NCBI GenBank assembly: GCA_001662655.1
Contig: KV460222.1
DNA: 64,000 bases
From: Pseudogymnoascus verrucosus
Taxonomy: Eukaryota
Strand: one strand, 5' to 3'
Position numbers and translations under genes: made by a program. Numbering within the stretch: the stretch's first letter is position 1; every line of letters starts with the position of its first letter. The notes under the pieces were generated by a model. It was not told the origin of the DNA and made no database searches. It saw only the letters and a program-made list of their open reading frames with translations. Positions 640 to 54,995 of this stretch are shown here, one piece after another.

Positions 640-1095
640 ATGGACATGAGAATCGAGATCATACGAGTCAGTATGGAAGAGGAGCGAGCCACCCTCAAAA
701 CCTCCATCAACGGTGCCGCGACGGCAGAGGCATTATCAGAGTTTATGGGAAAGCTGTCGGACGCCACGGCACAGGAGAATCCAGAGACACGATGGAGCCA
801 ACTTCATTGCTCCTTCCGTCCTTGTCTTTGGCCCTTCCTGTGCCGCTCCTTTCTGTCGTCAGTGCTCCTTCCTGTCGTCGCGCCTTCCTGTCGCTGCTCC
901 TTCCTGCCGCCATCGTTCCTTCCTACCATCGTACCTTCCTGCCGCCGTTGCTCCTTCCTAATGCGAACCTTCCAGCCATGGTTTGCTCCTTCCCGGTCCT
1001 CCTACCCGCAGCCTCTATTCCGCTTGACATCTGCTAAACAGCCACTACCATCACAAGGCAGTCCTTCGCCTATTCGCACAGCAGCTTGTATCTAG
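640..1095 (+). CDS. Possible orphan ORF (151 aa); 3' half runs through a motif repeat, so coding status is doubtful
   Basis: N-terminal ~55 aa look helical and protein-like (MDMRIEIIRVSMEEERATLK...); the rest translates the CCTTCC repeat cluster. Confidence 0.25.
   Translation: MDMRIEIIRVSMEEERATLKTSINGAATAEALSEFMGKLSDATAQENPETRWSQLHCSFRPCLWPFLCRSFLSSVLLPVVAPSCRCSFLPPSFLPTIVPSCRRCSFLMRTFQPWFAPSRSSYPQPLFRLTSAKQPLPSQGSPSPIRTAACI
805..995 (+). repeat. Cluster of ~11 direct copies of a GCTCCTTCC/TCGTWCCTTCC motif spaced 15-21 nt
   Basis: CCTTCC-type cores at ~812, 833, 848, 867, 883, 899, 918, 934, 953, 968, 988. Confidence 0.8.
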
Positions 1096-1314
1096 TGTCC
1101 TTCCCACTTCTATGGCATGTATATCAATGGACTTTGTTGTCATTGGCGTATAGACTCTTCGTTGCTCTCGTTACGAACCTCCCGCTCATTCAACTTGCCC
1201 CGCACGTGTATATTCATATTTATATTATAATAACTAGCATCTAGCACCCCACCTGACCCCCTCCGCAACAACTCCCCTTGAACACCCTATGTTAACACGG
1301 TACCACCCTGCCCT

Positions 1315-4300
1315 TCACCTCGCACTCCCCAACGCCGCCAACAACTCCCCAAACCTCTCCGCAGCTCCCCACGCACAACTCGGCATCCTCTCCCCCACCC
1401 CCCCTACACCATGATTATCATGAGTAGACAACAACTTAATCCCCTCTCTCAGAATCTTCCTCCCGGACCCCTTCATGCTAATATCCCCAATCCTCGCCAT
1501 ATAGGGCGTCATCTTCTCCCCAAACCTCACAAAGAGCTGCACGATCTCGTCGTCGCAGGGCCGGTCTAGCTGTATCAGAGACGTCTCGTGGCACTCGAGG
1601 TGGTCTAGCGCGCCGGCGATTTGTGCGTGTAGGGATGGGGGGTTGGGGAAGTAGCTGGAGATGCTGTGGTGGCGTTCGGAGTTGGCGCGCATGGCGAGGT
1701 CTTGGGTGTGGTGTGAGGCGTCGTGGGAGGCCCCGGCGTCGGCGGACCTGTGGGACTCGTAGGTTACCGTGTTGGGCGTGGAGCTGGCGAGTAGCTTAGC
1801 TGCTGAAGTAGAGACGCTGTAGGCCCAGAGCACGAGGGTGGCGAGATAGTTGGCGAATGGTTCTATGACGGCACCGCAGCTGTATCGGCGCAGATACCAG
1901 AAGACGGAGCCGGCGTGGATTATCGCCAGACGCGCCTTATATTGATCATGCAAAACCCACTTGTGCACGGAATTCTGCAAGTCTTGTTCTTGCGTAGTAG
2001 CGTCGAGGAACGATTCGGAGTGGCTCTGTGTTTCCTGGCGAAGCTTTACCCTCGCCAGCTCTTGAAGGTCGGATACAGGGGCTAGCAATATGAGACGCGC
2101 AAGATGAAGGTGTAAGATTGTAGGGTGTTCAAGGCCAGATGCCTGCAGGATTCGACTTTTGGCTGACCAGTGGAGAACGTCAAGGCAGTCGCAACTCCCG
2201 TTAGTCCATCTCGAAACCACAGAGCTGGTTAATGGCATTGTTGTTTTCTCCGATGTGACCCCGTGATGGGATTCGCTCAATGCCGTTGGAACCCAGTCCG
2301 ATAGAATATCGCTTTGATATCTTGCGACTTCCCAAACTCGACGGTACATGCCGTGAATCAGTAGAATTCTGCTTAGTTCACCAAGATTTGACACAAGTCT
2401 CTTTTCAGTATAGAGAACATCGAGTGCGAGACAAAGAGATGGAGGCCCTATAAAGACAAAATGGATCAGTCTCGGTGATGAAGAAGAGCAAAAGGAGTAT
2501 ATGAGAAGACTAACCGCCATTGAGGATGAGAAGTGGTGCTTTGTTAAGCATCGGCTCGTCCCAGATTTGTTCTGGACATGGTAAGGGCGCCTTGCCATCC
2601 AATAGATCCATGTGTGTTCGAAAGTCAGATTCATAAGCCATCATACAATCCAACATCTATCAGAGTCAGTTAGAAGGTTGCAAATTGACAGGGCTTCAAG
2701 TGATCTTACCCAGACAAAATAACCTGCCCTGCATTTCAGTTCACCTTCGAGCCATTGTTGCAAGAATCTGTCTCCTTCCTCATCCGTTCCAAGACAAGCC
2801 TGCCAGCCATCGTAGTGGTTTGACGCCAGAAGCTTGTTTTCGATACACGTCGTCACGAGAATAGCTCGGCCCTCGCGGGCAAGACTCGACAGTTTCTGAT
2901 TTCCACTATGGAACATACCCAGGACATTCAAAATCCGAGCCTGTAAACGGGTAGGGCGCTGCGGATATCTCCTGAGTCCAAAAACCTCGGGAAACTCGCT
3001 AGGATTGTAATATGATGATGTGGCGATCTCCAACAACTTGTTGACCAATTCATGTAGAGACTCGCTACATTTTCGTGCGTAGGCCGTTCCTACATAACAC
3101 GCCCCAATGGCTGCTATGGCGAGTTCCAACACACACCCATCTCTGGTGTTCAAAAAGGAAGGCTTGTGCAAGAGGGGAAAGGACTCATGGAACCTGTCGA
3201 AATACAGCCCAGCGAATTCATTGAGCTCTTTCAGAGACGGGAAGGAGTCTGTGTAAGATAGAGATATATCTCTCCTGGACGTATACTTCAAATAGTCTAT
3301 CAGGGCAACGTATGACTCCTCGGCAATCCAGATCTGTTGATGAGTGTATCCAGCTAAATGCGTATGAATGTTTTCCAAAGTCGGGCTGAGAGGGCTGCTT
3401 CCCTGACCACCAAATAGCGGAAGGGGCGCCTGATTTGGCTGTCTGTGGTGAGATAGAAGGGGCGATTGTGCCGCATCTCCATCAGCATAGTACATTGAGG
3501 CATCGGATGGCGATCCGACTGTGGCTATCGACGGGATTCTCTCCAGTGAGAAGGGTTTGCTCCGACCTGAAGCCAACCCAATATTCCTTGAATTGGCATA
3601 CGACTCCATATATGACTCGTCGAAATGACCAGTCGATGCTGAACGCGGACTTGATTGTATATTTTGCCCTCGATGTCCGTTGCCAAAAGCATCCTGGGCG
3701 CTGACATTGGGAGACCTCGCTGATTGAAGTGAAGCGGCCCCAAAGGCCTGATCAATGTGGGAAAGGTCATTGGGGGGCAGCCAGTTGATCCTCGAGTAGT
3801 TATAAAGACTCCCGATATTGCCTTCGCTAACTTGAGGAACAAGCTGTGCTCCAGCCACAATGGTTGTCTCTGGGCTAATAATGCCTCGCGAAAGCAACCA
3901 ATCTCTAGTACTCATTGGGGAGTCCCCTGCCAGAAGGGTCTGGGCAGCACTTGGATCAACTGACGTAACTTCCGACCCGCTGGCATTCCATGATTGCCCG
4001 ACTGAGGTCGAGTTAGAAGCCGTTGGTATAAGGAGATTACTTGTCCAGTTGCTCTCTTTGGGAACCGATCCAAACACTCCGGTGCTTGATTCATTCTCCC
4101 AGGTGACAACAGCAGACTCATCCTCGTCTCGTTCTGTCATTATCTCATCACCCTGTCCAGCTTCTTCCGAGCTAGCTCGAGACGAGTCTACAGAGTCAGC
4201 CTCGATCGCAGATTCGCCGGGTTCACACGTACGAGTTCTCCTCGAGGGATATTCACACCGCAGATCCCGGCTTCTGCACCGTGGGCAGACAACTCCACGC

Positions 4301-4682
4301 AAACATCTCACTCGTGCGCTCGCGCAGGCAAAACAAGCCCGAGAATAGCGCCGCGTCTCGTCCGATGCGTTCACCTTCCGTTTCAGCTCATGGCTGGCTT
4401 GATGCCGCCTTAGAATGTCTCTATCATTTCGATTAGCAGGTTTCATCATACAGTAGTGTTGGCCACTTACTGTCTTGCGAATCGCTTCTTGCACTCAACA
4501 CAGGCGAAGGGCTTCTCAGATGAATGGGCGCGTTTATGTCGTCTCAGATGCTCTGAGCGGGTGAAGACCTTGTCGCAGATATCGCATTTTATATCTTGTA
4601 TCTTGGGGTCATCTGCACCACTGGCAGCACTTGGATATTGTGGTGACACCTGAACTCCTCCAACGGGATCACGTTCCGACAT
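1315..4682 (-). CDS. Transcription factor with two C2H2 fingers, a Zn(II)2Cys6 cluster and a fungal-specific TF domain; multi-exon
   Basis: [42 protein letters not shown] across intron 4421-4470; [12 protein letters not shown]5-CPRC-x6-[18 protein letters not shown]; further introns near 2657-2709 and ~2450-2514. Confidence 0.9.
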
Positions 4683-5454
4683 GGTTGGCGGGCGCAAAAT
4701 GGAACCCTAAGCCGCAAGTCCAACGGCCTGTGGTAGTCACAGATATATAGCTAGGAACCTTGCAAGCCGGGCATTGGGATTGGAATAGTTAACACGTCCA
4801 AGGATGCATCGGGGCTTTCGAAGCGCTATATTATGGCAGAGATGGCTCTCAAATGCTAAAGCCACATGGCAATGGAGAAGAGATTGAGAGAATTATGGCC
4901 TATAAGAGTTTGATTTCTCGACAAGGTATGCTGAGGGGTCCATACTTCGTGCCGTCCCTGCAAGGATAGAGTGCTCGTGGCGATTTAAATTTGAAAGTGG
5001 AGAGTAAAATGGAAATGGACTGGAATATGGGAAATGGAAATGGCGGGGTTAGCGTCGCAGTTGATTCGGTACTGGAAGGAAAGGGTCCGTCGTGCAGAAA
5101 ACCCCCGGAACCCCGCATATAGACGACTGGCGGATTGGCGACAGCGGCGATCATTTGTTCCTGGGGAAATTATCCGGTCTTATTAACCGGCCGTCACGGG
5201 CCGACCATAAAACGATCGACCAACGAGACAGAGAGAGGGCTGGAACATGCAAAGTATGTATAAGTAATAACTCGAGCAGATAAGTAAAGAGGAAGGTGCG
5301 TATGCGATATGATTCCTGAGTCTCGAGTATAGGTCGGTTGTATCTTCCGGCTTGAATGACCAGTGATACTCTTGCAAATAATATTGTCCACCGGCTGGAG
5401 GTAGCCGTTGCATGGTGGCCAGCACACCCCGATCCTGTCTCCTTTCAAGCTCAA

Positions 5455-5700
5455 GGTATGGAAAGAACGATTGTCAAGCAATGCATCAGTCGCAGCTTCC
5501 TCAAGAGCCTTTTAGCCCTAGAAATGGAAAGAACGATTACCAAGCAGTGCCTTATTCGCAGCTTCCTTAGATCATTCAGGTTATAGACATGGAAGGAACG
5601 ATTACCAGCAATTCCCCAGTCGCAGCTTCCTCAGGAGATTTCGAGTTCTAGATATGGAAGGAACGATTACCAGGCGATGCCTTGATCGCAGCTTCCTCTG
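5455..5700 (+). repeat. Tandem array of 4 ~65-bp units with dyad GGAARGAACG-N20/21-CGCAGCTTCC
   Basis: ATGGAARGAACGATT starts at 5458, 5524, 5589, 5654, each followed by TCGCAGCTTCCT. Confidence 0.95.
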
Positions 5701-5813
5701 GAGAATAACGGCTTGATACTAGCACGTCGTAACGTCAAATAGACGATGATATCAAGAGCTCTTTACATTAATATCATGTATCTATCCAAGGATAATCCGA
5801 TGCGCATGCAATG

Positions 5814-7968
5814 TCAGTGGCAACCTCCATTGTCGTTTTGCACCTGCGTCCCATCAGCCAAAGTATGCTTAGAAGAAGGATTCTGCACATTTGTAGGCAC
5901 ATCAATCGCCGGGTTACACGAAAAGAAATCCGCTGGCTTCAACATCAAACGTATCTTCTCCGTCGGCATGACAGGAAAATCTTCCACTCGAGGAATATGC
6001 GTCATCCCCATAGTCACCCAGACCACCAGATCCTCATTCCTCACACCCCCATCTCTCGCCACATAGCTAGAGATCCCATCAATCTCCTCATACGAATTCG
6101 TAGTCCATTTCCCCCCAGCCCAGAGATCCCCATCGCGGTATTTAGAGACCCAGAGGTGGTGCTGAGCGAACTTTGCCCTCCTCGCCACCACGGATGATGG
6201 GTGGGCGAGAAGCAGCTGCGAAGGTGGTGCGGCCACCTTGTATCCCACGGGATTCCCAGAGATTCCGTTGATTTTGCCCTCATTGACGATTTTGCACGTA
6301 CGATTTCGGAGAGGATCCGCGTCTTCGAAGCCGGACTTCTCTATATGTCTTTTCCGCACCTCCCATGCGTTTCCGTAGACGTTAGCTTCGTCGTCAAGGG
6401 GCAATGGGACAGCCTCCCTCATCCACTTGCACGGAGTTCAGGTGCCCGTCGATAGCTGGGTCAATTCGCACGCACATCATGTGCTGATGATTCTGAGCCA
6501 GGACGCGAGGAGCGACAACCGTTCCCCATCGCGACGACCCAGGGTCGATGGGACAAGTGGATAGGATTCCCGTCGCACCGATCTCATACGTGAGCCCGGC
6601 AGCTTGGTCGAATCTCCAAGCCATTATATAATCGTAGTTCCTCAGAGTCATTGTAGTCTGTATAACTAAGACGCGGGATCGAGCTGCCACAGCAGCCCCG
6701 GTCATTCCGTTTGTATGTTTCCACAAAGCCCCGTCGTCTTCTTCATGGAGACATATGGCATTGGGCATTGTAATCGCCTTCCCCTGCATATTATTAACAA
6801 TCCCATCAAAATAGTAAATACCTCTCAAATAATCACAACCTAACCGGAGGGCGTTCGCCACAGCCCCCGCACCCGCATCTCCTAGGTCGAAAGCCTGTTT
6901 GATGTGATACGGCGCGCGAGGGTCAGCATATGGCACCGTCATCTCGCTCATACTCAGGCGGTAGAACAGCGACCGGTTATCATACCGGATATCATGCAGC
7001 ACCATGCCCTCTCGAAAGTCGAAGCGCACGCGGAACCGCCACTTCTGCCATTCTACGAGCGAGCCATCCGTGACTGTGAAGCTCACTCCCTCGGGCTGGA
7101 CGATATGGAGAGGTCGTAGATCCTGACGAGGCTGCCGGAGCAGATCCGGATGGTAGTCATTGGGTTGGCATCCGTCTAGAGCGGTGCCGCTGGCCCAGTT
7201 TGGCGAAGCGCACGGCGAAGGTATGCGTTCGTTGGGAATCCCGTCTGCGGGCATGGGATCAATACGGACCACAGTCTTGTTCGCGACATCAACCACGTGT
7301 GACAATGGCAGGGGAAATGAGTACATCTTGCTCTCTGGATTGCTCCCCGCGGGACCCAGAGCGTACGCCCACCCCCGAAGGTACCTCAGGGGGTTAGGAC
7401 CAGTGTCTTTGTCCGCGCCATACAAGACTACATCGTATGACAAGTTCACGCCAGCGGGCAAGCCTAGCGAGGACACTGCGGTCGCCCATTCGGAGGAGCT
7501 GGCGACGATGGCGAAAACGGCCCTGTACTCGATTGGGTCGACAATCCCCTGATGAGGCTTGGGCACGGCGACATGAGAGGATTCCTGGGATGTGGTCAGG
7601 CACACCACGCTCGTATACATTTGTGCTTGGCCCTGGATGCAGTAGTGGACTTCGGCGCAGCGAGGAATGGCAATATCGTCACCGGGCTGAAGTGTATCCC
7701 CGTACTCGTTGTCTAGGTAGGGGATCATCGGACGCTTCGGTGCTTCGAGAAGCGTGATTATCTTAGTGACAATCAAGTCGGCCTCGACAAGATGGCGGAG
7801 GCTGGCATTCTGACGGACGATTTTGGCTGCGGTGACAATTTCGTGGGCAGTTAGAGAACTGAAGGGATGAGACCGACGAGTTGGCGGTGTTTTCACGGCG
7901 GTATCTGGAACCATAGTGCAGACGGACATGAGAAAAACTCGTATGAGTGTGTTTTTGCGTGACGGCAA
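5814..7968 (-). pseudogene. Copper amine oxidase (TPQ-dependent), frameshifted
   Basis: NYDY TPQ motif, HQH copper ligands, THIPRVEDFPVMP, WQKWRFRV; split into ORFs 6394-7968 and 5814-6422 by a 4-nt duplication at 6413-6420. True start may be a downstream Met. Confidence 0.85.
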
Positions 7969-15882: not shown

Positions 15883-16002
15883 CCTGGCTATTGCTCCTGA
15901 ATTTTGTATGGCTTTTTATTGTGGTTTTGGATGCTAAATAATAAAGATAGTGTGTGGAAAACTAAAGCATATATAAGCAGTATATAAGAATTTAGCGGGT
16001 GG

Positions 16003-16112
16003 AATGATAAATCGTACCTTGCGGACACTTGTCTCTAGATAGGGAGTTAAGTTCTTTCTCTCTAATGATAATTCGTACCTTACGAGCACTTGTCTCTAGG
16101 TAGGGAGCTAAG
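16003..16112 (+). repeat. Two ~49-bp direct repeats, period 61
   Basis: AATGATAA.TCGTACCTT...CACTTGTCTCTAG.TAGGGAG.TAAG at 16003 and 16064. Confidence 0.85.
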
Positions 16113-16490
16113 AGGTTTATCTGTGGTAAACTAAACTAGCCTTTAACATACCTTACCGGCGTGTACCTAAATTAGTAGCATATATAGACTAATGCATAAC
16201 TATAGAATTAACTTATAGTAGATTACCACAAAGATTAGCGTTTGAATTCCGCTTATGCATGTGGCACACGTACCCATCATCTCACCTTATAGTTCTCCTT
16301 TACAACCTCGACCTCGCCAGCCCCTTACCCACCCCCCGCCCCAGCACAGCCATCTAGGCCTGCGAAACCAGACACGCGCGCCAAAAGGAAAGAAAAAACG
16401 ACATCTCCATTTCTGTTACTAAACTTCAGGTGCAAGATATATATTTGCCTATTTGCTATTCTAGATTATTCCAAACTCATCGACATAATT

Positions 16491-38020: not shown

Positions 38021-38029
38021 ATAGGAATC

Positions 38030-38255
38030 AGAGAAAGAAGAAGAAGAGGAAGACCAGAAAGAAGAAGAGGAGAAAAAAACAGACAAAAAAGAGAACCAGA
38101 CAAGAAAAAGAACAAGAGGACGAGGAAGGAAGAGAGGAAAAAGAAAAAGAGGAGGAACAAGAAGAAGAAGGGGAACAAGAAGAAGAGGAGGAACAAGAAG
38201 AAGAAGAGGAACAAGAACAGAGGAAATAAATTGGACAAGAAGAAGAAGAAGAATT
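38030..38255 (+). repeat. Purine-rich (GAA/GAG) low-complexity tract
   Basis: Almost no T on + strand; GAACAAGAAGAAGA repeats. Confidence 0.8.
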
Positions 38256-38376
38256 ACACAATGAGTAAGTGGAAAGATGGGCCAACACGGCTTCATACCA
38301 GCATCTATTTTAAATATCCCATATATTCGATGGTGCTAGTCAATTATCTATAAACATGGCAATATATATATACATC

Positions 38377-40818: not shown

Positions 40819-41354
40819 TGTGAGGGGAGATTATATGGTACAAGTGGGAAAAAGGCTACATGGATCAGTATGATCCAGGTAATGATAGAAAGACGGGTAG
40901 AACCCACGGAACCATTGTTGTCGTCGCAATTGAGCACCTCTGATGGAGAAATAGTTTTGCAGCTATCGCGGCCATGGACAACCCAAAATGTCGACGGCAA
41001 TCCCCGCATCGGCAACTAGCCTGATGCGGTAATTCTTGACAACAGGGTCCAGGTCTCCTTCAACAACTCGATAAAAGGGCAAAATTTGTGAAATAAATAA
41101 AAATATGTTAATACGCGCAGGTTAGGTGAAAAATTGTATTAAAGAATTAGGTATTTATAACTCTTGGAATCCTGTTTATCGTACGCATGCCCCCCACGAA
41201 GTTATCATCGACGCCAAACCTGGAAAGGAGGCCTAGGTTCTCATATGATTACTTCTTATTTCGGCAAACCTGGCTTCTTTATAAGAGGGTTATTGTTAAT
41301 ATCACCTATACTTATTTGCCCGAGCATACTCTAAGCGTAATATAGCTTGAAGTC

Positions 41355-41792
41355 ATCGAGGAAGCTGCGACCGAGGCATTCCTTCGTATCGTTCCTTCCC
41401 AATATATAGCCTGAGAGATCTGAGGAAGCTACGACTGACGCATTGCTTGATAATCGTTCCTTCTATATCAAGAGCTCAAACCTATGAGGAAGCTGCGGCC
41501 CAGGCTTTCTTGGTAATCGTTCCTTCCATATCTACAACCTCAACGTTCCCGAGGAAGCTGCGATCGAGCCATGGATTGGTAACCGTTCCTACTATGTCTA
41601 TGACAAGATGGCTTCAAGGAAGCTGCGACTGGGGGCTTTGCTTGGCAATCGTTCTTTCCATATCAAGAAATTGAAAGCTCCGAGGAAGATGCGATTGAGG
41701 CTTGCTTGGCAATCGTTCCTTCCATATCTATATCCTCAAAGGCCCCCGAAGAAGCTGCGACTGGAGCTTGCCTGATAATCGTTCTTTCCGTA
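41355..41792 (-). repeat. Tandem array of 7 ~65-bp dyad units, reverse complement of the 5455-5700 array
   Basis: GAGGAAGCTGCGA-type boxes at 41358, 41422, 41486, 41551, 41616, 41682, 41748, each followed by AATCGTTCYTTCC-type boxes. Confidence 0.95.
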
Positions 41793-41923
41793 TTATTATT
41801 TATATATGCATGATCCGCACATCATTCACTTGCACGCCTTACTCCTAAAATGCCTAAACTACCACCCTAACGCTTCTAAACCGAAGAAAACCCCACACTC
41901 TAGCTGCAATGCAGCGCCCGCTT

Positions 41924-43537
41924 TTACAACAAAGCCTCCAAACCACCATCCCCATCCACACCCATAGCATCAGCGTCCTTCCCCCTCCTCCCCTCCACCC
42001 TCCTCGCCCCCAAAAGTGCACCAACACAATACAACCCCACCACAGCCACCACCGCAAACGGCCCTCCCCTCCACAACCCCCCCCACTCCAATCCAATCCC
42101 ATACAACTTCGCCAACACCGGCCCGCCCACAATACTCCCCAAAATCTCCACCACCCCAACCGCCGCATACAAACTCGCCACCTGACTCGCCGGAACCAGC
42201 TCCGTCAGTAACGACCGACACAGTCCCATGAACCCGCTCCCGAGCGAGAAGATAGCAAGCGCCGTCAAAACCAGCGCCAGCGGCGGCGAGAGCGCGAGTA
42301 AAACGCACCCTGTGACCATGGCGCCCGCCGAGAGGAGAGCGAGGAGGTAATCCTTCGCGCGCGTAGAGAGGGCGGGTCCGCGTGGGCGAGTGAGGAGGTG
42401 CGAGGCGATGGGGAGGATGGCGAGGATGACGCTCATGTCGATAGCGGCGCGGACGGACATGAGGTAGCCTGCCTGTGCGAGGGACCAGTGGAAGCGAGTT
42501 GAGACGTCGCGGAGGGCGAGCTGGACCATCTGTACGGCGAGGACGACGAGGAAGAAGGTGGAGAGGAGGAGGATGGCGGGAGTGGAGTTGAACATTGATG
42601 ATGTTGAGGCTATGGTTGTGCGGAGGTGGTCTTTGATGGAGGTGAGGAGGCTGGATGGTTGGTGAGGTGGAGAGGTGGTGAGGGGTGATACTGGGGCGGA
42701 TGTGGAAATGGGTTTGGTTGGGCGGGCGTGTAACGACTCGGGAACGAAGAGGAAGCATACTCCGCCCACGGCTATTATGACTATGCCTAACAGCATTGGT
42801 GGATACGGCGACCAGCTCATGAGTCTGCCGGAGAGTATGGGACCTAAGATCTGAGCTCCTAGGCTGCCGCTCATTATTATTAGGAAGGTCTGGGCGCGGC
42901 TCTCTGCAGGAGCAACGTCGGCGACGGTAGCGAAGAGCATAGCGGAAGTCACGGCGGCGCCGCCGCCGATGACCTGCAAGAGCGGCACGGCCCAGACGAG
43001 GCGAAGGGGAAACACGCGCCACCACCAACAGATGGCGAGGTTCAAGAGCTCACCGAGCTCTATACCGATCACGGAAAGGATGAAGACGGGTTTGCGGCCG
43101 ATGCGGTCCGCGAGAATGCCATATGGCATGGAGAACAGGAGACTGGGAATGGAGGTGGCGACGAAGAGGCCTCCAAAGACCGTGGCGAGCTCGGCCTGGA
43201 CGGGGCCAACTTTGCAGAGCGACTCATCGATCGGGGTGTCGAGGGAGAGATGGGATGTGCCTTTTAGGTTATCGTAGTAGTGGTGGCAGATGATATCCTC
43301 ATAGATGCGAGACTGAGGCATAGTCATCATGTATGCGCCGAGGTTGATGAGAAACATCACGCCCGTGAGGAGGGCAATGATGAGGCGGTGGTCGTGCAGC
43401 GTTGGCAAGCGATTTGGCAAGTGTGATATAGACGGCTTTCGCTGCCTAGTGCTAGGGAGGAGAGGCTCATTCTCCTGTTCGGACTCATGATGATGAGCCA
43501 TGCCGTAGTCGTCGAGTTCGGTCGCTGCCGCTTGCAA
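41924..43537 (-). CDS. MFS transporter, intronless
   Basis: Multiple hydrophobic helices; motif A GILADRIGRKPV; EDIICHHYY...CK loop. Confidence 0.9.
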   Translation of the reverse strand: MQAAATELDDYGMAHHHESEQENEPLLPSTRQRKPSISHLPNRLPTLHDHRLIIALLTGVMFLINLGAYMMTMPQSRIYEDIICHHYYDNLKGTSHLSLDTPIDESLCKVGPVQAELATVFGGLFVATSIPSLLFSMPYGILADRIGRKPVFILSVIGIELGELLNLAICWWWRVFPLRLVWAVPLLQVIGGGAAVTSAMLFATVADVAPAESRAQTFLIIMSGSLGAQILGPILSGRLMSWSPYPPMLLGIVIIAVGGVCFLFVPESLHARPTKPISTSAPVSPLTTSPPHQPSSLLTSIKDHLRTTIASTSSMFNSTPAILLLSTFFLVVLAVQMVQLALRDVSTRFHWSLAQAGYLMSVRAAIDMSVILAILPIASHLLTRPRGPALSTRAKDYLLALLSAGAMVTGCVLLALSPPLALVLTALAIFSLGSGFMGLCRSLLTELVPASQVASLYAAVGVVEILGSIVGGPVLAKLYGIGLEWGGLWRGGPFAVVAVVGLYCVGALLGARRVEGRRGKDADAMGVDGDGGLEALL

Positions 43538-44504
43538 TTAAGTCTCCGTCACCGCCAGCGAGAATTGGCAATCAATACTAAGCAAGCAGGCTCTGCAACC
43601 AAAGAAAACAAAATCACAAAACGGCGGCGACGATGCGAACTCTATATAAACACAGCACATACGTAGTTAGATTACGTTACAGAGGGCATAATCACGAATG
43701 CCACGCGGTGTTCCAAGACTGTATTGCTAGCGTCGCGATATTATTGGTGATAAGCCGTGTCAAAACGGGAAGGTCGCTGATGGGAGTATGCACGGTGCCA
43801 ATCGGGAAAATGATGTGCCTTGGTCCTTGGCTGACAGCCATGACACCCAGGCTTGGCATTGCTTTTGTTTTTCATTGTTGGCTGACGATATTATTTCTAC
43901 ATACGCGGCCTTGAGAAGGGGGATTATATTACCATTATATTATCATGACGCGTCAGAATAGCGACTTAATACGACTGCTTTTATACGCGGATGGCTTTTT
44001 AAACCGAGATAATATTGTACATGGACAACACGGTTTCATTTACTGTTCCTGTAGCTAACTCAAGGCGCACATGTGGCATTTGTGCATCTGTAGCTAATTC
44101 GACATGGACATGTGGCATTATCGTGTGTTTGTAGTCTGAGGCAGTCGAATGAGAATTGTCTTGTATCTGAGCTAATCTAAGGAAGACATATGAGACAGAG
44201 CTATGTTTTTCTCACACGTATCATCAGTTGTCTCAAAACATGCTGTCCACAATTTTGTCGTCTATTTTCTTGCCTATAAAGTGGTCCTGAGACGGAAGAA
44301 TAAAATAACAACTTGATTGGAGAAGAAGAGAATAAACGCCTTCGAAATGAACGAGACTGATGTTTGAAGTGTGTCATGGTGCATGTCTCTCTCAAGACGT
44401 AGACCTTAACAAGAGAGCACGAGATTCGAAGCACACCGTCAACATCCCCAGCTTATCCAATCCCCAACCCCCGTGCCTTCCCGACACCCCCGCAAACCCC
44501 ACTC

Positions 44505-45356
44505 TCACTCACCCACCCATCCCTCCACGAGCCTCATTTTCCTATCCTCCTCCCTCCCCCTCTTCTCCTTCTCCGCCTTCTTCTTCGCCATCCTCCTCTT
44601 CTGCGTATCTGTCACATACGCAAGCCTCGCCTCTCTAAGGGCCATCTTCTTTTCCTCCTCCGTCCTAGTGTCTTCCTCCTCCTTCTTCTTCTCCTCCTCC
44701 ATTATTTTCTCTTCATTGAACTCCCTCATAACAACCTCGTACATCCTCTTCTCCTCTGCCTTTCTCTGTTTCTCTATCTTCCTCTCCTCTTCTTTCCTCT
44801 CTTCCTCCGCTTTCCTCTCTTCTTCCTCTGCCTTTCTATCCTCATCCGTCTCCCGCATCTCTACCACCACCCTATCCATCTCCTTCCTCGCAATCTTCAG
44901 AATCTCATTCGCCGCCTCATGCGGCTCACCGATTTCCTCCCCCTCCGCTGCGAAAAATGCAGTCACGAGCTCAGTTGCGATCGCGAGGTACTGCTCGCCA
45001 CGCGCAGGACTCGTGCGTGTTAGCACCGCGGCGTCGCTGCAGAGGACTTGCACGGCGGTTAGGAGGAGTTGTTGCGAGGTGTGAGATTCGAGGGCGTCGA
45101 AGAGGTGGGCGTTTGCGCGGGTGAGGGGCGGTGAGGGAGAGAGATCTGTTGGGGGATTTGGGGAGATAGCTGCGGTTGAGGAGGGGTCAAAAGGAGCAGG
45201 AGTGGTGAGGGCTGTGGGAGGGGTGGAGGAGGGCTCGGAGGATGGTTCGGAGGGGGAGTTGGAGGGGGAATTAGAGATGGGACTTGAGGATAGACTTGAA
45301 GATGAAGCTGCCGACGAGCTCAATGAGGGCCCAGAAGAAGAACCAGACGACGCCAT
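44505..45356 (-). CDS. Orphan protein: Ser/Pro-rich N-terminus, short globular core, E/K/R-rich helical tail
   Basis: 283-aa intronless ORF with low-complexity ends. Confidence 0.5.
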   Translation of the reverse strand: MASSGSSSGPSLSSSAASSSSLSSSPISNSPSNSPSEPSSEPSSTPPTALTTPAPFDPSSTAAISPNPPTDLSPSPPLTRANAHLFDALESHTSQQLLLTAVQVLCSDAAVLTRTSPARGEQYLAIATELVTAFFAAEGEEIGEPHEAANEILKIARKEMDRVVVEMRETDEDRKAEEEERKAEEERKEEERKIEKQRKAEEKRMYEVVMREFNEEKIMEEEKKKEEEDTRTEEEKKMALREARLAYVTDTQKRRMAKKKAEKEKRGREEDRKMRLVEGWVGE

Positions 45357-46043
45357 TGAGAAGCACAGAGTAACAGTCCCGTGATATCGTTGAAGGTTAC
45401 GTTGTTTGTGCCCGATGTTAAATCACCCCAACTGCCTGCTCGGGAGTGAAGCTCGTTACACGATCCTACAATGTGCTCACAGAATGCCGGAGTACACAAA
45501 CTCTTATACCCCCCGCTTCTCCCTCCCCCCCAAGGCTACCACCACAACACCGCCCTGTCTCGGGAGTTCTCCCACCGCAAACCTGCTGTGTATGAAACTC
45601 CTTTACCTGCGCGCTGTTAAGGGGGAGCATACCACGGTACTGCTGGAAAAGCGAAGCACATAAAGAGAAGATGCGGCAGGATGATAGACACTTCCTATCA
45701 ACCGGGCTTATATAACCCTCATCTCGTCGGGCGGTAGGTAGTTGTCTCGGAACTTCCCCAGGTTCGTACACCTGCAGAATATGAGAACGCACCTCCCCCC
45801 CCCCCCCACAAGCGACGGTGAGGGTATGACAAACAAACCCTGTAGAACCCTATTGCAACACCAACGGAAGACATATCGGGAGTAAAAGTACGTATGGTCC
45901 CGATACCAACGGCTGTCTGTGCGATGTAGGGGCCCGACTAAAACATAACATCCCGCTACCCGCGGTTCCGACGGGATCGCGGGAAGATCAGATGACGGTT
46001 GTTAGCTGGTGCAAACGGCGACTGACGAACCGATCATGATCCC

Positions 46044-46323
46044 TCGCTCTTTCCCTATATCGTCCCTTCCATCTATAGTTATATCTCTGAATCGCTCTTT
46101 CCCGTAGAGTACTCTTTCCCGGGGTCGCTCTTTCCTTAGACAGCACTAGCCCTGGTCGTCGTTGATCCAGATCGCTCTTTCCCTCTCTCACTATTTCCAC
46201 GACCTGCTCCTACCCTCTCGCCATTAATCCTGTTCGCTCTTGCCGCTTCTTACCCCTTCCATGTTTCCCTAGATTGTTCACTCCTCCTCTCACCCCCACT
46301 CTCCCCCCGGGTCGCTCCTTCCC
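46044..46323 (+). repeat. Cluster of ~8 direct copies of TCGCTCYTTCC
   Basis: Exact or near copies at 46044, 46060, 46092, 46110, 46125, 46172, 46234, 46312. Confidence 0.8.
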
Positions 46324-46739
46324 ATTCCCCTATAAACGCCCACAAACCAAAAACGGGGCCCGTCCCTATGATACTAGTCTAACATCCACCCGTCCCCTCC
46401 CCCACCACCACGCCCCCCGCCAAAGCTAGCACAGACGCGCGCCTACGAAACATAACCACCGGAAATCACAGCAAAGTAGGTAGCTATATGCAATAATCCG
46501 TTTCTCTACCTAACCTACATAACACCCACACCCACCCCCACCCCGTCCACACAACCCCCCCACCCGTGGCAACGACCGCGGCAACCTACATCATAACATC
46601 ATCACATACCCCTTCCTCCCTCCCCATAGATGATCCCTATCTGCATGTAACGCCTTCACCCCCAAGCCCGTTGAACCACACCACAAACGCCCTGGTTAAC
46701 AGTCGCATAAATGAAAGAAAATCCTGGTTTCTATCCCAT

Positions 46740-46845
46740 CCACGCCTATGCCTATGCCTGTATCCGTGTCCATGTCCATGCCCGTGTCCTTATCCATGCC
46801 TGTTTCCGTGTCCATGTCCATGTCCATGCCTGTATCCGTGTCCAG
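46740..46845 (+). repeat. Degenerate hexamer microsatellite (TGTCCA/TGTCCG/TGCCTA)
   Basis: Visible tandem repeats downstream of the patatin gene. Confidence 0.75.
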
Positions 46846-47157
46846 CTCGTGAAATGTAGTTTTGTGGTTTTTTGATTTGAAGTTTAAACGACCGGTCGGT
46901 ACACAGATCCCGGTATCCGTGTTCGATCCGATCCAATATCCAGCATCGGGATAGAGTCATCTACCCCCCGCCCCCCACACCCAGTTCAATCAAGGCCCTC
47001 CCGCACAGAAAACGCTCCAAAAACGCCTGCAACCGGGTATTCCAACCAACTAAACAACTAAACAACCAAACAACCAGTCTCCCCCCTTCCCCGCCCCTCT
47101 CCACCCCTCAAACCCCCACCAAACCGAAAAATAAATATAACGAACAAGAACCCCCCC

Positions 47158-49213
47158 CTACCTCCCATTCCACTCCGGCTTCCTCGCCATATTAACCACC
47201 GGCGGCGGTCCATCATCCAACGGATACGGCGGCCCTAGCGTCGACACCGAGCTGGGCACCCTCCTATGCTCCCGCACCCCCATAATCGGCGTCTTCGGCG
47301 GCAACGGCGGCGGTTCCATCCCCCCATTGCCCTGCTCCTCATCCCCCTCCACGATAGCGATCTTATCCCGTCCCCCCGCAGTCCAGTACTGCGCCGGCGT
47401 TGGGGCATGGGATGTCAACCTATCTCCTCCTCCTCCCCAACCGCCCCCGCCGGCAGTAGCGCTAGTAGGTGTAGTAGACAAAGCAGACACAGGACGTCCA
47501 TCATCGCTTGTCCTCGGACTACCCCGGATGGGGGAGGGTACACCGAGGGATTCAGCGCCGAGATCGTAGCTGCGTCGCGAACTTGGCCGCGCTGCGGGCA
47601 CTGCAGACCCAGGTGGTACCTCAGCGGGTAACTCGGCCGCGAAAGAGGGGTACGGCGTCTCCGGTACATTCTGCAAAGTCATCCTCCTCGGGTCCCTGGG
47701 TGGCGGGACAAGTGGTGGCGGCGGCGCCGGATCACGACCACGCAAACGCGTGAGAAAGATGCGTGCTAATCGCGTGGCGGCATTGAGTGACATAGCCTGT
47801 ACATCCGGCCTCGCGAGATACCGTCTCGTGGACGTCGAGATATCCGCCAGACGTCCCCACTCATTCATCCCGAAATCCCCGACGCCAACCTCGACATTGA
47901 GGCGGATGTAGGAGTCTATCTCGATGTTCCTGGCAGCGAGGAGGGCGGGCATGGAAAGATGCGTCGTCTCGCACCCTTCGATCTTGGAAATTAATCTGCG
48001 TCGCGCCTCGGCGAAGTCGCCGAGGAAATCGTCGTACCAGAGGTGACTATTCGCATCTGTGTTCGAGGGCCTCTTCCCGGTACCTATAGAAATAAACGTC
48101 CCCACCGGCCTCCCAGGGTATTCATTCAGCGTCACCTCGTCCAGCGCGATCGGGGCAGGGTTGAAGCGCCCGTGGACTTCGTCGATGAATACCGACTGCC
48201 CGATTTGGATGGGTTTGAAGGCTAATCCGGTCGCGGAGGTGGCGCGCCCGGCTTGCCAGATCGTGCAGTTGAATTCGGGGGCGGGTTCTTTGCGGGAGTC
48301 GTAGGAGCGGAGGAGGGCGGGGGGGGCGCCTTTGGGGGTGTTTTGGTAGACTGCTGTTACGGCGCTAAGGGGTGTTAGTTGGGGTTTGTGAGAATGGAGG
48401 TGGGTTGGTTGAAGGGGGGATAGTGGGAGTGTGACAGAAAGATGATGATGGATTGGATAGGGGACTTACGTCTTCGTGCGATTCTCCCTCATATCATAAA
48501 GCAGCGCATTTGCATCCCCATACCTCGCCGAAGTGGACCACTTCCTATCCCCATACGTGCTCCTCGGCCCCCTCGCCGAAAAGCTCATAATACTCGCATT
48601 ACTATGATGCCTCTTCACCCCCTCGCTCCTCCCACTATCCCCCCTACCCAACGGATACCCAACAGGACTCTGCACATCCTCAAACGCCTCCCCATCATTC
48701 CCCTCGCTCTGAAACACCGTATGCTCCCTCACGCACTCGCGGATCGCTTCTTCAAGCTTACTCGCCTTGAACAGCGTGCTCCGGTACGGGATCCCCGCGA
48801 TGGTCTTGTCGGTCTCGAAGACCTTGCGCGTCATCCGCACGTAGACTTCTTTGCATGTCTCGAGGTCGAGACGCAGGCGACCGAGCATTATCGCGATTAG
48901 TCCGCCCGTGCCCGTGCCGACGATCAGGTCGAAGTGATCGCATGGTTTTGGGATCTCAGAGCGCTTCGGGGCGCGTCCTTCGATCTCGACAAAGGTCCGG
49001 TGCATGAGCTCTTGCAGGATGATGAAGACGCTGTAGCCGCGCACGCCGCCGCCATCTGGGGAGAAGAAGAAGAAGTTAGCGCAGTCCAGGCAGAGGCGCA
49101 AAGGCGCGGGGATGGAAGGGTGAAGGGAGGAGGAGGGAGTTACCTAGAGAGAGGACGCGCAGAGGTGCGCCTTTCGTGGTGTCCTTCCGGCGTAATCCTG
49201 TGTTGGTCTCCAT
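47158..49213 (-). CDS. Patatin-like phospholipase-family protein with non-canonical catalytic motifs; 3 exons
   Basis: PLRVLSL|DGGGVRG, FDLIVGTGTGG, WQAGRATSA, FIDEVHG; introns ~49057-49143 and ~48366-48469; Pro-rich tail. Confidence 0.9.
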
Positions 49214-49445
49214 GGTGGCCGTTGGTGGGGGAGAGACCCTTTGTTGTCGCCTGGAGATGTGCGCTCGCTCGCTCGCTCGCTCGCTGCCCCGCAGTGTTCG
49301 GGTACTGGTGGCTGTAGCTCCCGCCGCGGCGTCGCTTGTGTGGTTTGTATGTTCTGTCTGTGTGTAGTGGTGATGCGATGGAGTTGGTTTATATATCGGA
49401 TTCGTGAGTATGTTGTAAGGATCGTTGGTGATTCAGTTAAAGATT

Positions 49446-49478
49446 GTAGTAGTAGAGTAGAGTAGAGTAGAGTAGAGT
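49446..49478 (+). repeat. (AGTAG)n microsatellite
   Basis: Direct read. Confidence 0.85.
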
Positions 49479-50548
49479 AAAGTGTCTAGTTTGACGTGAG
49501 CTGAGATTTGTTGGTGGTAGTAGATTAGTAGTCGGTGGTGGCGGTGGTGGTTGTTGATCTTGGCTGGGGGGGTTGGCCGGGGTTAGAGATGCACGCGTCC
49601 TTGTACTGCTGTACGGTAACAATACGGTGGAGTTGGTGTAGCCGTAACGGGCAATACAGACTGCTGTCAGTGGGGTACAATGAGGGATATTTGGTGTATT
49701 TGAGGTGTATTTGTAGTGTTCTTGGCCGTAGCACGGACACGCCGGTGGGAGGGTATGACGGGTCTTGGGGGACGGTACAGACGGCACGCACGGGTGGTGG
49801 CAGTAGGTTTTTAGGTGCAGGTAGGCAGACCAGTTAGTGGATTGGTAACGGGACGGTCGGAAGTATCAAATAGTGTGTATACGCGTATAAGATTGTCTGT
49901 TTATACTGTTCGCACTGTTCTCTATATTGCTTCTATTATACTCTCTATTATACTCTCTAATATATATACTGCACAGTCAGTCTGACAGTATATGCAATAT
50001 TCATAGTCATGAAGCAGTCATCAATACAGAAACCAATATCTCGTCCTCGCCGACATGGACACCACGACCCCGTACACTACAGTACTGTACCCTCACTATA
50101 AATCAGCCCTACCCGTCCAAATCTCGATCCCACCGCCATCACCGCCGCCATTCCCTCCTAATCCCTCATTAATCTAATAAACTCATAACAAATTACTTAA
50201 GGTGATAGGACTCATAAAGTGAGTAGGTGAGTAGTATATTAACGCACCACCTGACACTAAACCACCACCACTACCCATACCTTAACCACCTGTCCCCATC
50301 CCCCAAGCGTTCCTGACCCCATCCCCCCCCACTAACTCCACTCCCCACACTAACAACAACCCAGAACAAACCCACCCGATGACGATGACGACGCCCACCT
50401 GTGGCTGTGCATGACGCCTCCCTTCCCTCCCGCGCCCGATCGATCACCAACAACGACGCCCAACTTTCTTCTTTGGCCTCGACTCGACTTTCCGGCTGGT
50501 CGGGTCCGCGGGTCCCCACGTTTTTATGAGCCGTATTGCCGGTGTTGA

Positions 50549-50590
50549 CTGGGATGGGATGGGATGGGATGGGATGAGGTTGGGATGGGG
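50549..50590 (+). repeat. (GGGAT)n microsatellite
   Basis: Direct read. Confidence 0.8.
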
Positions 50591-50732
50591 TTGGGATTCT
50601 CACCGCTTACTGGTGTTGAAATCGCTGGGAGGCAGGGCATGTGCTGACTACTACTCAGGGTTTGTGCTGGATGGATGGGATGGACTAAGCATCATTTCTC
50701 AGCCCGCTCGGAGTCTTTGCGGAGCTCACAGA

Positions 50733-51200
50733 AGGGGAAGGAGCAACTAACCAACGATGGGTCGTTCCTTCCCTCTTTTTAGAGGAGTATCGTCTGACAG
50801 CTGATGATACTACTCTAACCACCCCACCAGAAGCAACATCAGCGAGCTAGGTCAGCTGACGAGAGAAACCGCATGCTCAGGGTCCATGGTCTAGACTGTA
50901 ACGTCACCTGTACCCTTATTCTCATTTTTCTTTTGTCGTCGCCGTCGCCGTCTTCATCGTAGTCCTTGCCTTCGTCTTTGTCGTCGGGCGGGCCGAGTAT
51001 CTAGGGTTAGGTTGTATGGAGCTTCTAAAAGGAGGGAAGGAGCGCTGTCGTTGGTTTAGTCGCTCTTTCCCTTTATGTATGCCCGTCCGAGGATCTACAA
51101 GGAGGGAAGGAACGACTAATTGTTGGTTTAGTCGCTCGTTCCCTTTGTGTGAGGGTTGGAGGAGGGAAGGAGCGATCCGTTGTTGGTTGCTCTTTTCCTT
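50733..51200. repeat. Four hairpin-forming units GGGAAGGARCG...CGYTCBTTCC (three direct, one inverted)
   Basis: Units at 51031, 51101, 51161 and an inverted copy at 50733-50775. Confidence 0.85.
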
Positions 51201-54939: not shown

Positions 54940-54995
54940 GATTATATTGGTCGGGGGCTAAAATTTAACATATTAAATGCCAAAAATAATAAAAA

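What the first reader, a model, noticed from the sequence alone, without database searches (positions are those of the whole stretch)
805..51200. A shared TCG-NNN-CTTCC motif family forms six clustered arrays in three different geometries
Seen: an ~11-bp motif (TCGTTCCTTCC, TCGCTCTTTCC, TCGCAGCTTCC, TCGTACCTTCC and variants) clusters at 805-995, 5455-5700, 16003-16155, 41355-41792, 46044-46323 and 50733-51200. It occurs as close direct repeats, as inverted pairs inside 65-bp units, and as hairpin arms. The sequence between motifs differs among loci while the motif ends are kept. All clusters lie outside conserved genes. Inference: this fits selection on a binding site for one DNA-binding protein (insulator, chromatin, origin or recombinase type), or relics of an unrecognised mobile element, better than simple slippage. 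I know of no described fungal element with this pattern.
Basis: partly seen in the sequence, partly recalled or inferred. Interest (0 to 1): 0.78.

Follow-up and report, generated by a model that had tools for sequence, protein, structure and literature searches.

The report
Dispersed palindromic repeat arrays in Pseudogymnoascus
A cold-soil fungus and its relatives carry a scattered family of short non-coding repeat arrays whose two 11-letter arms stay almost unchanged while the DNA between them drifts, which points to a recognition site for an unknown protein.

Summary
The motif clustering is real in five of the six places. TCGNNNYTTCC occurs 36 times against 4.6 expected, and 31 of those hits lie in clusters 1, 2, 4, 5 and 6. 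Cluster 3 (16003-16155) has no hit and is an unrelated two-copy repeat.

The clusters are not six independent events:
- Arrays 5444-5698 and 41357-41793 are one 64-66-bp minisatellite family in opposite orientation. Each unit is an imperfect palindrome plus a linker.
- Cluster 6 is a set of better hairpins that share the arm.
- Clusters 1 and 5 are direct repeats of the pyrimidine arm alone.

The window is from Pseudogymnoascus (nuclear, core genes). The 66-bp family is dispersed. Extra contigs from four related organisms pile onto it, two metagenome contigs carry it, and five public "proteins" are translations through such arrays. The orthologous array has 7, 4 or 2 units in different relatives.

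Across 18 units, pairwise identity is 0.89-0.90 in the arms, 0.63 in the spacer and 0.42 in the linker. This argues for sequence-specific constraint. Hairpin stability for the 66-bp family is not above shuffles.

Best reading: a dispersed, once-mobile repeat carrying paired protein-recognition sites, kept in 3' intergenic DNA. No transposon ends, RNA family or published description were found. Function is inferred, not shown.

The parts
5444..5698 (-). Array 2: four 64-66-bp units of the 66-bp family. Unit cores at 5651-5698, 5586-5632, 5521-5568 and 5455-5502, read on the - strand. Each core has a left arm GGAAGCTGCGA, a ~20-nt spacer and a right arm TCGTTCYTTCC followed by ATAT; a ~20-nt linker follows. 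The array starts 116 nt after the stop (5814) of the copper amine oxidase gene, on the same strand.
   Evidence: period 66, 3.9 copies; nhmmer E 1e-15 to 2.5e-14; CM 60-68 bits; Pfam Cu_amine_oxid
41357..41793 (+). Array 4: seven units of the same family in the opposite orientation. Cores at 41358-41404, 41422-41469, 41486-41533, 41551-41599, 41616-41664, 41682-41729 and 41748-41794. It ends 131 nt from the stop (41924) of an MFS transporter gene (- strand) and lies about 530 bp upstream of the CIA84/PPR gene (- strand).
   Evidence: period 66, 6.7 copies; 77-86% to array 2, inverted; 53-70 bits; extra contigs; unit-number variation in relatives
51030..51204 (+). Cluster 6, right part: three tandem palindromic units starting at 51030, 51100 and 51160 (period 70 and 60). 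Arms are GGGAAGGAGCGA / TCGCTCTTTCCC-type with a TTGTTGGTT loop. Stems are 12-17 bp with G.U pairs on the + strand.
   Evidence: MFE -22.7 to -24.6, z -4.0 to -5.2 on +; three units together z about -6; weak CM hits E 3.3-3.6
50731..50787 (.). Cluster 6, left part: one palindromic unit (arms GGAAGGAGCAA / TCGTTCCTTCC). Its loop and flank are inverted relative to the three units at 51030-51204.
   Evidence: I18: 50749-50783 vs 51094-51128, 35 nt, 86%; z -3.5 both strands; CM E 0.12
46009..46323 (+). Cluster 5: direct repeats of the pyrimidine arm alone. TCGCTCTTTCCC is exact at 46044, 46092 and 46172, and has one mismatch at 46125 and 46312. TCGTCCCTTCC sits at 46060. Spacers are non-repeated (33-140 bp start to start). 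The first copy may be the right arm of a decayed full unit (46009-46059).
   Evidence: 8 matches at <=1 mismatch, all in clusters 5 and 6; 0.37 expected, 0/100 shuffles reach 8; CM E 0.016
805..995 (+). Cluster 1: degenerate 16-19-bp periodic tract. It carries GCTCCTTCC five times (809, 864, 896, 950, 985) and TCGNNCCTTCC three times (878, 913, 929). It lies 320-510 bp beyond the stop of a Zn2Cys6-type factor gene on the - strand. This is the weakest member; its link to the family rests on the shared 9-11-mer only.
   Evidence: periods 16/35/51; 3 hits vs 0.05 in local shuffles

Best explanation
These are copies of a dispersed, non-coding repeat family restricted, as far as seen here, to Pseudogymnoascus.

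The basic module is an imperfect palindrome of about 45 bp. Its purine arm is GGAAG-NNN-CGA. A 15-21-nt spacer holding TTG(C/T)TTGG follows, then the pyrimidine arm TCG-NNN-YTTCC. In the main subfamily the module is chained head to tail with ~20-bp linkers into 64-66-bp minisatellites.

The module spread to tens of intergenic sites, mostly just beyond gene 3' ends. The spreading mechanism is unknown. Arrays then gained or lost whole units by exchange between the conserved cores.

The arms are kept by sequence-specific constraint. The most likely reason is that each arm is the recognition site of one DNA-binding protein, so an array is a row of paired binding sites. Clusters 1 and 5 are rows of single sites. 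What the bound protein does is inferred only. Possibilities are an insulator or transcription roadblock between neighbouring genes, or the element's own recombinase.

Shown: family, dispersal, unit-number variation, differential conservation. Inferred: protein binding and any host role.
For: Real excess and clustering:
- 36 hits vs 4.6+-2.0 in shuffles. Five clusters vs 0.003 in shuffles.

One family:
- Arrays 2 and 4 are 77-86% alike in inverted orientation.
- 18 of 18 units (11 in the window, 5 in L004, 2 in L008) score E<=1.5e-11 with one profile. The next hits have E>=0.008.

Dispersal:
- In contigs of four related organisms, summed depth over 41254-41961 is about 2-10 times the depth of the flanking bins.
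- Pieces of long contigs from elsewhere (34, 21 and 36 kb) align to the units.
- Loose ends and inserted letters again show GGAAG-YYR-CGA words.
- 2 of 8 metagenome loci are true arrays; the other 6 are single chance hits.
- 5 of 9 library proteins hit by a translation of the array are translations through further arrays. One is a GenBank 'hypothetical protein' of Pseudogymnoascus sp. VKM F-4518.

Unit-number variation at the orthologous site:
- Contigs of organisms B and E skip 196 bp. A contig of organism D skips 41381-41706. Both flanks stay joined.

Constraint:
- Pairwise identity is 0.89/0.90 in the arms, 0.63 in the spacer and 0.42 in the linker.
- The non-pairing arm positions are also conserved.
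- One-arm clusters exist. The 12-mer TCGCTCTTTCCC is shared by clusters 5 and 6 only.

Position:
- Arrays start or end 116 and 131 nt from stop codons.
- In L004 the array lies about 270 nt from the stops of two convergent ORFs. The left one is only a 66-aa open frame.

Other:
- Core genes lie between arrays 2 and 4 (Cdc23, ribosomal S9, kinase, CIA84), so the two arrays are not the ends of one large element.
Against: - No protein is identified and no binding is shown.
- In each arm type the middle three letters are fixed but differ between the arms (TTC vs CAG/TAG). The two arms may therefore not be the same site. Common descent plus some other constraint could give this pattern.
- Variation in the arms keeps G.U-tolerant pairing on one strand (159/162 cells vs 138/162 on the other). 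This leans toward a single-strand (RNA or ssDNA) reading. It is weak: 36 of 500 shuffles do as well.
- Clusters 1, 5 and 6 match the 66-bp profile only weakly (E 0.016 to >1). Their link to the family rests on a 9-12-mer.
- Clusters 5 and 6 are not dispersed at >=80% likeness in relatives (baseline depth).
- The whole genome could not be scanned. Copy number, orientation bias and empty sites are therefore unknown.
- Repeat libraries such as Repbase and Dfam are not available here.
Confidence: 0.45

Rival explanations
1. Relics of a non-autonomous mobile element (MITE-like, foldback-like, or the subterminal binding-site region of a DNA transposon). The arms are conserved only because they were transposase sites in recently active copies. 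There is no host function.
For: - The family is dispersed with the same unit architecture in several genomes.
- The module is palindromic.
- In cluster 6 an inverted unit pair flanks about 310 bp, like a small inverted-repeat element (I18).
- A hAT relic in the same window shows that transposons with clustered subterminal words exist in this genome.
Against: - Neither the repeat finder nor my reading of the flanks of arrays 2, 4, L004 and L008 showed terminal inverted repeats or target-site duplications at the array borders.
- The arrays fade into degenerate units or linker-like sequence.
- No transposase domain lies next to any array.
- The hAT relic uses another word (AGTATTCGGCG).
- Array 4 is present at the same site in all four relatives laid. 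It is old, yet its arms are about 90% alike while its linkers are at 0.39-0.42 identity. Neutral decay of a dead element would not give this.
Confidence: 0.25
2. The units act as single-stranded hairpins. They would be RNA elements in 3' UTRs or read-through transcripts (stability, 3'-end formation, small-RNA precursors), or ssDNA hairpins recognised as in bacterial REP elements.
For: - Cluster 6 units fold far better than shuffles (z -4.0 to -5.2; about -6 for three units).
- In the 66-bp family, 159 of 162 arm cells pair on the GAGGAAG strand if G.U is allowed, against 138 of 162 on the other strand.
- All four variable pairs change in the wobble-compatible direction. There is one double change, G-C to U-A.
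- In array 2 and L004 that strand is the sense strand just downstream of a stop codon.
Against: - Single 66-bp-family units are not significantly stable (z -1.4 and -1.6).
- Whole arrays give z about 0 to -2 (with a weaker swap shuffle).
- The covariation test is not significant (36/500 and 144/500 shuffles).
- Two conserved mismatches sit in the stem.
- In array 4 the better-pairing strand is antisense to both neighbouring genes.
- Clusters 1 and 5 have one arm only.
- No Rfam family matches.
Confidence: 0.15
3. There is no common element. Pyrimidine-rich low-complexity promoter or UTR tracts and an ordinary minisatellite share CTTCC-type words by chance.
For: - Cluster 1 is a CT-rich periodic tract.
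- CCTTCC alone is only about 2-fold enriched (75 vs 39).
- Clusters 1, 5 and 6 do not match the 66-bp profile significantly.
Against: - Local dinucleotide shuffles of each cluster never reach the observed counts (0/1000 each).
- The 12-mer TCGCTCTTTCCC (<=1 mismatch) occurs 8 times, only in clusters 5 and 6, vs 0.37 expected.
- The right arm of the left unit in cluster 6 (TCGTTCCTTCC) is identical to the 66-bp family's arm.
Confidence: 0.07

Closest known systems
Bacterial REP / BIME / REPIN elements. I saw the abstracts in the search listing: PMC3337134, PMC3116915, PMC3733652, PMC3479197.
   Same: - Short (20-45 bp) imperfect palindromes.
- Extragenic, often just after genes.
- Occur singly, as inverted pairs and in arrays with variable linkers.
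- Conserved mismatches in the stem.
- Dispersed in tens to hundreds of copies.
- Proposed roles in termination, mRNA stability and protein recruitment.
   Different: - REPs are bacterial and are mobilised by a RAYT tyrosine transposase.
- Here the host is a fungal nuclear genome, and no such enzyme could be looked for.
- All units in an array of the 66-bp family point the same way.
- The linkers share length and a weak consensus, so these arrays are true tandem repeats.
- This is an analogy of form, not membership.
Subterminal transposase-binding word clusters of DNA transposons (hAT, CACTA/En-Spm) and MITEs derived from them. This comparison is recalled knowledge. The hAT relic at 52.4-54.95 kb in this window is a local example.
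   Same: A 10-12-bp word repeated in direct and inverted orientation with variable spacing within a few hundred bp.
   Different: - No terminal inverted repeats, target duplications or transposase next to the clusters.
- Core genes lie between the arrays.
- The arrays are syntenic in relatives.
- The local hAT uses a different word.
Homotypic binding-site arrays that act as insulators or roadblock terminators. Examples are Su(Hw) sites of gypsy, Reb1/TTF-I terminator repeats and variable tandem repeats in yeast promoters. All are recalled; none was read here.
   Same: - Rows of one conserved site with drifting spacers.
- Position between neighbouring genes.
- Copy number varies between relatives.
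   Different: - No protein is known.
- The motif matches none of the fungal factor sites I could recall (Reb1, Abf1, PacC, AreA, FarA/B, Gcr1 CT-box).
- No functional data exist.
MATE elements with clustered Spe-motifs in Aspergillus nidulans (AMA1 is built from them). Recalled. One search returned only papers that mention MATE/AMA1, and I read none of them.
   Same: A fungal dispersed non-coding element defined by clusters of a short word.
   Different: - MATE elements are about 6 kb with terminal repeats and a different word.
- Here the units are 45-66 bp with no larger element around them.

Membership tests
Minisatellite (tandem repeat, unit 10-100 bp) | Head-to-tail units of constant length | tested here: met
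   TRF period 66, 3.9 and 6.7 copies. Unit starts are 63-66 bp apart.
Minisatellite (tandem repeat, unit 10-100 bp) | Unit-number variation between relatives at the same locus | tested here: met
   Contigs of organisms B and E skip 196 bp. Organism D skips 326 bp. Both flanks stay joined (tables 5 and 8).
DNA transposon / MITE | Terminal inverted repeats and target-site duplication at the borders | tested here: not met
   The repeat finder and the array borders show none. Borders look like decayed units or linkers. This was done by eye and by repeat finder only, on 4 arrays.
DNA transposon / MITE | Linked or cognate transposase | tested here: inconclusive
   No transposase domain lies next to the arrays. 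The only one in the window (hAT, 54586-54774) has another subterminal word. The rest of the genome is not available.
DNA transposon / MITE | Filled versus empty sites among relatives | tested here: not met
   Array 4 is present in all 4 relatives laid. Only this one family locus could be checked.
REP/BIME-like palindromic units | Imperfect palindrome of 20-45 bp, extragenic | tested here: met
   Core of about 45 bp with 9 of 11 arm positions pairing. No Pfam-supported ORF overlaps.
REP/BIME-like palindromic units | Associated RAYT-type (HUH Y1) transposase; bacterial host | not testable with these tools
   No genome is held for the window. The host is a fungus. This is therefore an analogy only.
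Homotypic cluster of protein-binding sites | Site over-represented and clustered beyond composition | tested here: met
Homotypic cluster of protein-binding sites | Site conserved more than its surroundings | tested here: met
   Arms 0.89-0.90, spacer 0.63, linker 0.42 pairwise identity over 18 units.
Homotypic cluster of protein-binding sites | A protein that binds it | not testable with these tools
   No binding data. No match to factor sites that I recall.
Structured RNA family | Match to a curated family, or significant covariation and stability | tested here: not met
   Rfam gave none at gathering score over the window (apart from the 5S rRNA) and none at E<=1 over 41000-51500. The covariation test reached 36/500 and 144/500 shuffles. 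Unit z is -1.4/-1.6 for the 66-bp family. Cluster 6 alone is stable (z -4 to -5).
Helitron end | Hairpin followed by a CTRR terminus, with a 5' TC start | tested here: not met
   In the alignment, only 2 of 18 units have CTAG after the right arm. No TC start follows it.

The most novel reading that the evidence does not exclude
A fungal nuclear counterpart of bacterial REP/BIME elements. It would be a palindromic module that spread through Pseudogymnoascus genomes and is now kept by the host, in unit-number-variable arrays right after gene ends. There it would act as rows of paired binding sites (or single-strand hairpins) for one dedicated protein. That protein would insulate neighbouring genes or stop read-through transcription.
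Probability: 0.2. Interest if true: 0.75.

Novelty: new variant of a known kind. Interest (0 to 1): 0.5.

Why it matters
If the arms are a protein recognition site kept by selection, these arrays give a ready-made handle on an unknown DNA- or RNA-binding factor. They would also bear on how compact fungal genomes separate closely packed genes. This matters in a genus that includes the bat white-nose pathogen and many cold-adapted soil fungi.

There are practical consequences as well:
- The arrays are being annotated as hypothetical proteins in public records (P0082) and should be masked.
- Their unit-number variation makes them candidate typing markers.

If they are only decaying mobile relics, the finding is a new repeat family for fungal repeat libraries and little more.

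Tried and rejected
- **Whole-genome scan:** no genome is held for the window.
- **One large element bounded by arrays 2 and 4** (inverted, 36 kb apart): rejected. The interval holds core genes, and array 4 is flanked by syntenic sequence in relatives.
- **Cluster 6 as the end of the hAT relic:** rejected. The relic's own repeats start near 52423 and use another word.
- **Known factor sites recalled from memory** (PacC GCCAAG, AreA HGATAR, FarA/B CCTCGG, Abf1, Reb1, BrlA, HSF, Mcm1, Gcr1 CT-box): each fits at most a minority of units by eye. None was pursued.
- **Coding repeat:** rejected. Unit lengths of 63-66 bp shift the frame, and public 'proteins' through the arrays switch frames.
- **Rfam and tRNA scans:** nothing at the clusters.
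- **Earlier notes of this scan:** nothing for this genome or sequence. Word searches gave only unrelated genomes, mostly bacterial and viral. One search failed on word count.
- **RNA evidence:** no RNA holder listed among the runs.
- **Parts of the stretch without extra contigs:** clusters 5 and 6 sit at baseline depth. I only say they are not dispersed at >=80% likeness.
- **Metagenome scan:** 6 of 8 loci were single chance matches.
- **Representative-protein search:** 4 of 9 hits were unrelated 21-residue repeat proteins.
- **Whole-array folding:** the first try timed out. The rerun used 30 swap-type shuffles, which randomise repeats less well.
- **Literature:** the motif words gave only unrelated papers among the 20 of 118 listed. 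Searches on Pseudogymnoascus repeats, fungal dispersed minisatellites and Leotiomycete MITEs gave nothing relevant in the listings. I read no paper in full. Repbase and Dfam cannot be searched here, so 'undescribed' means only 'not found by these searches'.

Full report
**What the window is**

ORFs with Pfam support include two Zn2Cys6-type factors, a copper amine oxidase, Cdc23, ribosomal protein S9, a protein kinase, a PPR/CIA84 protein, an MFS transporter, a patatin-like protein and a GMC oxidoreductase. The CIA84 ORF is 96% identical to a protein of Pseudogymnoascus sp. VKM F-4517. This is nuclear, gene-dense core DNA of a Pseudogymnoascus species (Leotiomycetes). No whole genome is held for it.

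- TCGNNNYTTCC occurs 36 times on both strands. In 200 dinucleotide-preserving shuffles the mean is 4.6+-2.0 with a maximum of 10.
- 31 of the 36 hits lie in five of the six claimed clusters. The other five are singletons.
- Five clusters have three or more hits. The mean in 300 shuffles is 0.003. Shuffling each cluster on its own never reproduces its count (0 of 1000 each).
- Without any prior, the most over-represented 8-mers in the window are AATCGTTC, AAGGAACG and AGGAACGA.
- Cluster 3 (16003-16155) has no hit. It is two copies of a ~60-bp direct repeat that only shares TCGTACCTT. I drop it.

**Anatomy**

*Arrays 2 and 4.* Arrays 5444-5698 and 41357-41793 are one tandem-repeat family. TRF gives period 66, with 3.9 and 6.7 copies. 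They lie in opposite orientation and are 77-86% alike.

I aligned 18 units: 7 from array 4, 4 from array 2, 5 from locus L004 and 2 from L008. Read on the strand that begins GAGGAAG, the consensus unit has these parts:
- a left arm GGAAGCTRCGA
- a ~20-nt spacer ending TTGCTTGGTAA
- a right arm TCGTTCYTTCC followed by ATAT
- a ~20-nt linker with only a faint consensus

Mean pairwise identity is 0.89 (left arm), 0.63 (spacer), 0.90 (right arm) and 0.42 (linker).

*Cluster 6.* It holds one palindromic unit at 50731-50787 and three tandem ones from 51030 to 51204. Their arms pair almost perfectly (GGGAAGGAGCGA with TCGCTCTTTCCC). The first unit is inverted relative to the others.

*Cluster 5.* It repeats the pyrimidine arm alone. 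With at most one mismatch, TCGCTCTTTCCC occurs eight times in the window: five times in cluster 5 and three times in cluster 6. The expectation is 0.37. The spacers in cluster 5 are not repeats of each other.

*Cluster 1.* It is a degenerate 16-19-bp periodic tract. It carries GCTCCTTCC five times and TCGNNCCTTCC three times.

*Relation between clusters.* A profile and a covariance model of the 66-bp unit find only arrays 2 and 4 strongly. The best further hits are 46009-46059, the start of cluster 5 (E 0.016), and 50734-50777 (E 0.12). Clusters 1, 5 and 6 are therefore tied to the 66-bp family by the arm word, not by unit-wide homology.

**Dispersal and age**

I laid the contigs of four related organisms (coded B, C, D, E) on 40900-51500.
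- Summed depth over the array bins (41254-41961) is about 2 to 10 times the depth of the flanking bins in all four.
- Pieces of long contigs from elsewhere in those genomes (34, 21 and 36 kb) align to single units.
- The letters these contigs carry between matched parts again contain GGAAG-YYR-CGA words.
- The family is therefore scattered over tens of places per genome.

At the orthologous site the array is present in all four relatives but shorter. Contigs of B and E join 41446 to 41643 (three units fewer). A contig of D joins 41380 to 41707 (five units fewer). The flanks stay continuous. Clusters 5 and 6 are covered at baseline depth, so they are single-copy at 80% likeness.

Two further lines show dispersal:
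- One metagenome scan with a two-arm pattern gave 8 loci. Two are true arrays: L004 with five 63-bp units and L008 with two. Six are single chance matches in unrelated DNA. L004 is also Pseudogymnoascus, since its neighbouring ORF is 95% identical to a P. destructans protein.
- Searching protein libraries with a translation through the L004 array found five predicted 'proteins' that are translations of further arrays. One is a GenBank hypothetical protein of Pseudogymnoascus sp. VKM F-4518. Four other library hits are unrelated repeat proteins.

All named members are from this genus.

**Where the arrays sit**

- Array 2 begins 116 nt after the stop codon of the amine oxidase gene, on the same strand. 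It lies upstream of a Zn2Cys6 gene.
- Array 4 ends 131 nt from the stop of the MFS gene and lies about 530 bp upstream of CIA84.
- The L004 array lies about 270 nt from the stops of two convergent open frames. The left one is only a 66-residue open end.
- Core genes fill the 36 kb between arrays 2 and 4, so the two arrays are not the ends of one large element.

**Binding site or hairpin?**

*For a hairpin:*
- On the GAGGAAG strand, 159 of 162 arm cells form standard pairs if G.U is allowed. On the other strand the figure is 138 of 162.
- The four variable pairs all vary in the wobble-compatible direction. One unit has a double change.
- Cluster 6 units are very stable (z -4.0 to -5.2).

*Against a hairpin:*
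- Units of the 66-bp family are not more stable than shuffles (z -1.4 and -1.6).
- Whole arrays give z about 0 to -2 (with a weaker shuffle).
- The covariation measures are reached by 36 and 144 of 500 shuffles.
- Two stem positions are conserved mismatches (C.C in 17 of 18 units, T.T in 16 of 18).
- Clusters 1 and 5 have one arm with no partner.
- In array 4 the better-pairing strand is antisense to both neighbours.
- Rfam has no match.

I conclude that the letters of the arms themselves are what is kept. This fits recognition by a protein better than stem formation alone. A single-strand reading is not excluded.

**Selfish relic or host element?**

The shared unit architecture at many sites means the module once spread. 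I found no terminal inverted repeats, target duplications or nearby transposase. The window's one transposase relic is a hAT at about 52.4-54.95 kb. It has its own subterminal word, AGTATTCGGCG.

The linkers of one array have drifted to near-random identity (0.39 in array 4) while the arms stay near 0.9. The species compared differ by only a few percent in flanking DNA. A dead element would decay evenly, so constraint in place is the simpler reading.

My best explanation is therefore a once-mobile module carrying paired recognition sites that is now retained (confidence 0.45). Its position just beyond gene ends makes an insulating or read-through-blocking role a reasonable guess. That role is inference only.

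**Comparison with known things**

- In form it is closest to bacterial REP/BIME/REPIN elements (abstracts seen). Host, enzyme and array organisation differ, so this is analogy only.
- It also resembles subterminal word clusters of hAT or CACTA transposons and insulator or terminator site arrays (recalled). It fails or cannot be tested on their defining features.
- My literature searches found no description of it (listings only).
- Repeat libraries could not be consulted.

**Verdict**

This is a real and apparently undescribed dispersed repeat family with unusually clear differential conservation. Interest is moderate (0.5).

Noticed in passing
window 52400-54950 (+): Degenerate hAT transposon relic. 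It has an ORF with an RWN.TY-type motif at 53842-54342 and a Dimer_Tnp_hAT domain at 54586-54774 (E 1.9e-15). GC is low (0.39-0.43). Its own subterminal word AGTATTCGGCG is repeated at 52423-52461 and 54814-54927.
   Followed up: partly
window 54995-55114 (-): A complete 5S rRNA gene (74 bits, model 1-120) lies directly beside the right end of the hAT relic.
   Followed up: no
Its nature is unknown.
   Followed up: partly
window 46076-47191: C-rich stretch with no ORF, Pfam or Rfam support. It differs from a contig of organism C by only 13 letters in 1115, while neighbouring coding stretches differ by about 4% (table 8). It contains an 18/42-bp tandem repeat at 46754-46844. It may be an unrecognised conserved non-coding element or gene.
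   Followed up: no
protein P0082 (GenBank hypothetical protein of Pseudogymnoascus sp. VKM F-4518); also P0078-P0081: Public gene predictions that are translations through arrays of this repeat family (IWKERLPSK...SRSFL periodicity with frame switches). They are probably annotation artefacts.
   Followed up: partly
L008 1027-1061: The metagenome contig ends in a sequencing-adapter-like tail, so its last bases are not biological.
   Followed up: no
window 38030-38224 and 44545-44840: Long purine-rich (AAG/GAG) and complementary pyrimidine-rich low-complexity tracts. They match each other as inverted repeats at 70-77% (I9, I13, I21). The second lies in a Glu/Lys-rich ORF. This is low complexity, not part of the family.
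   Followed up: no
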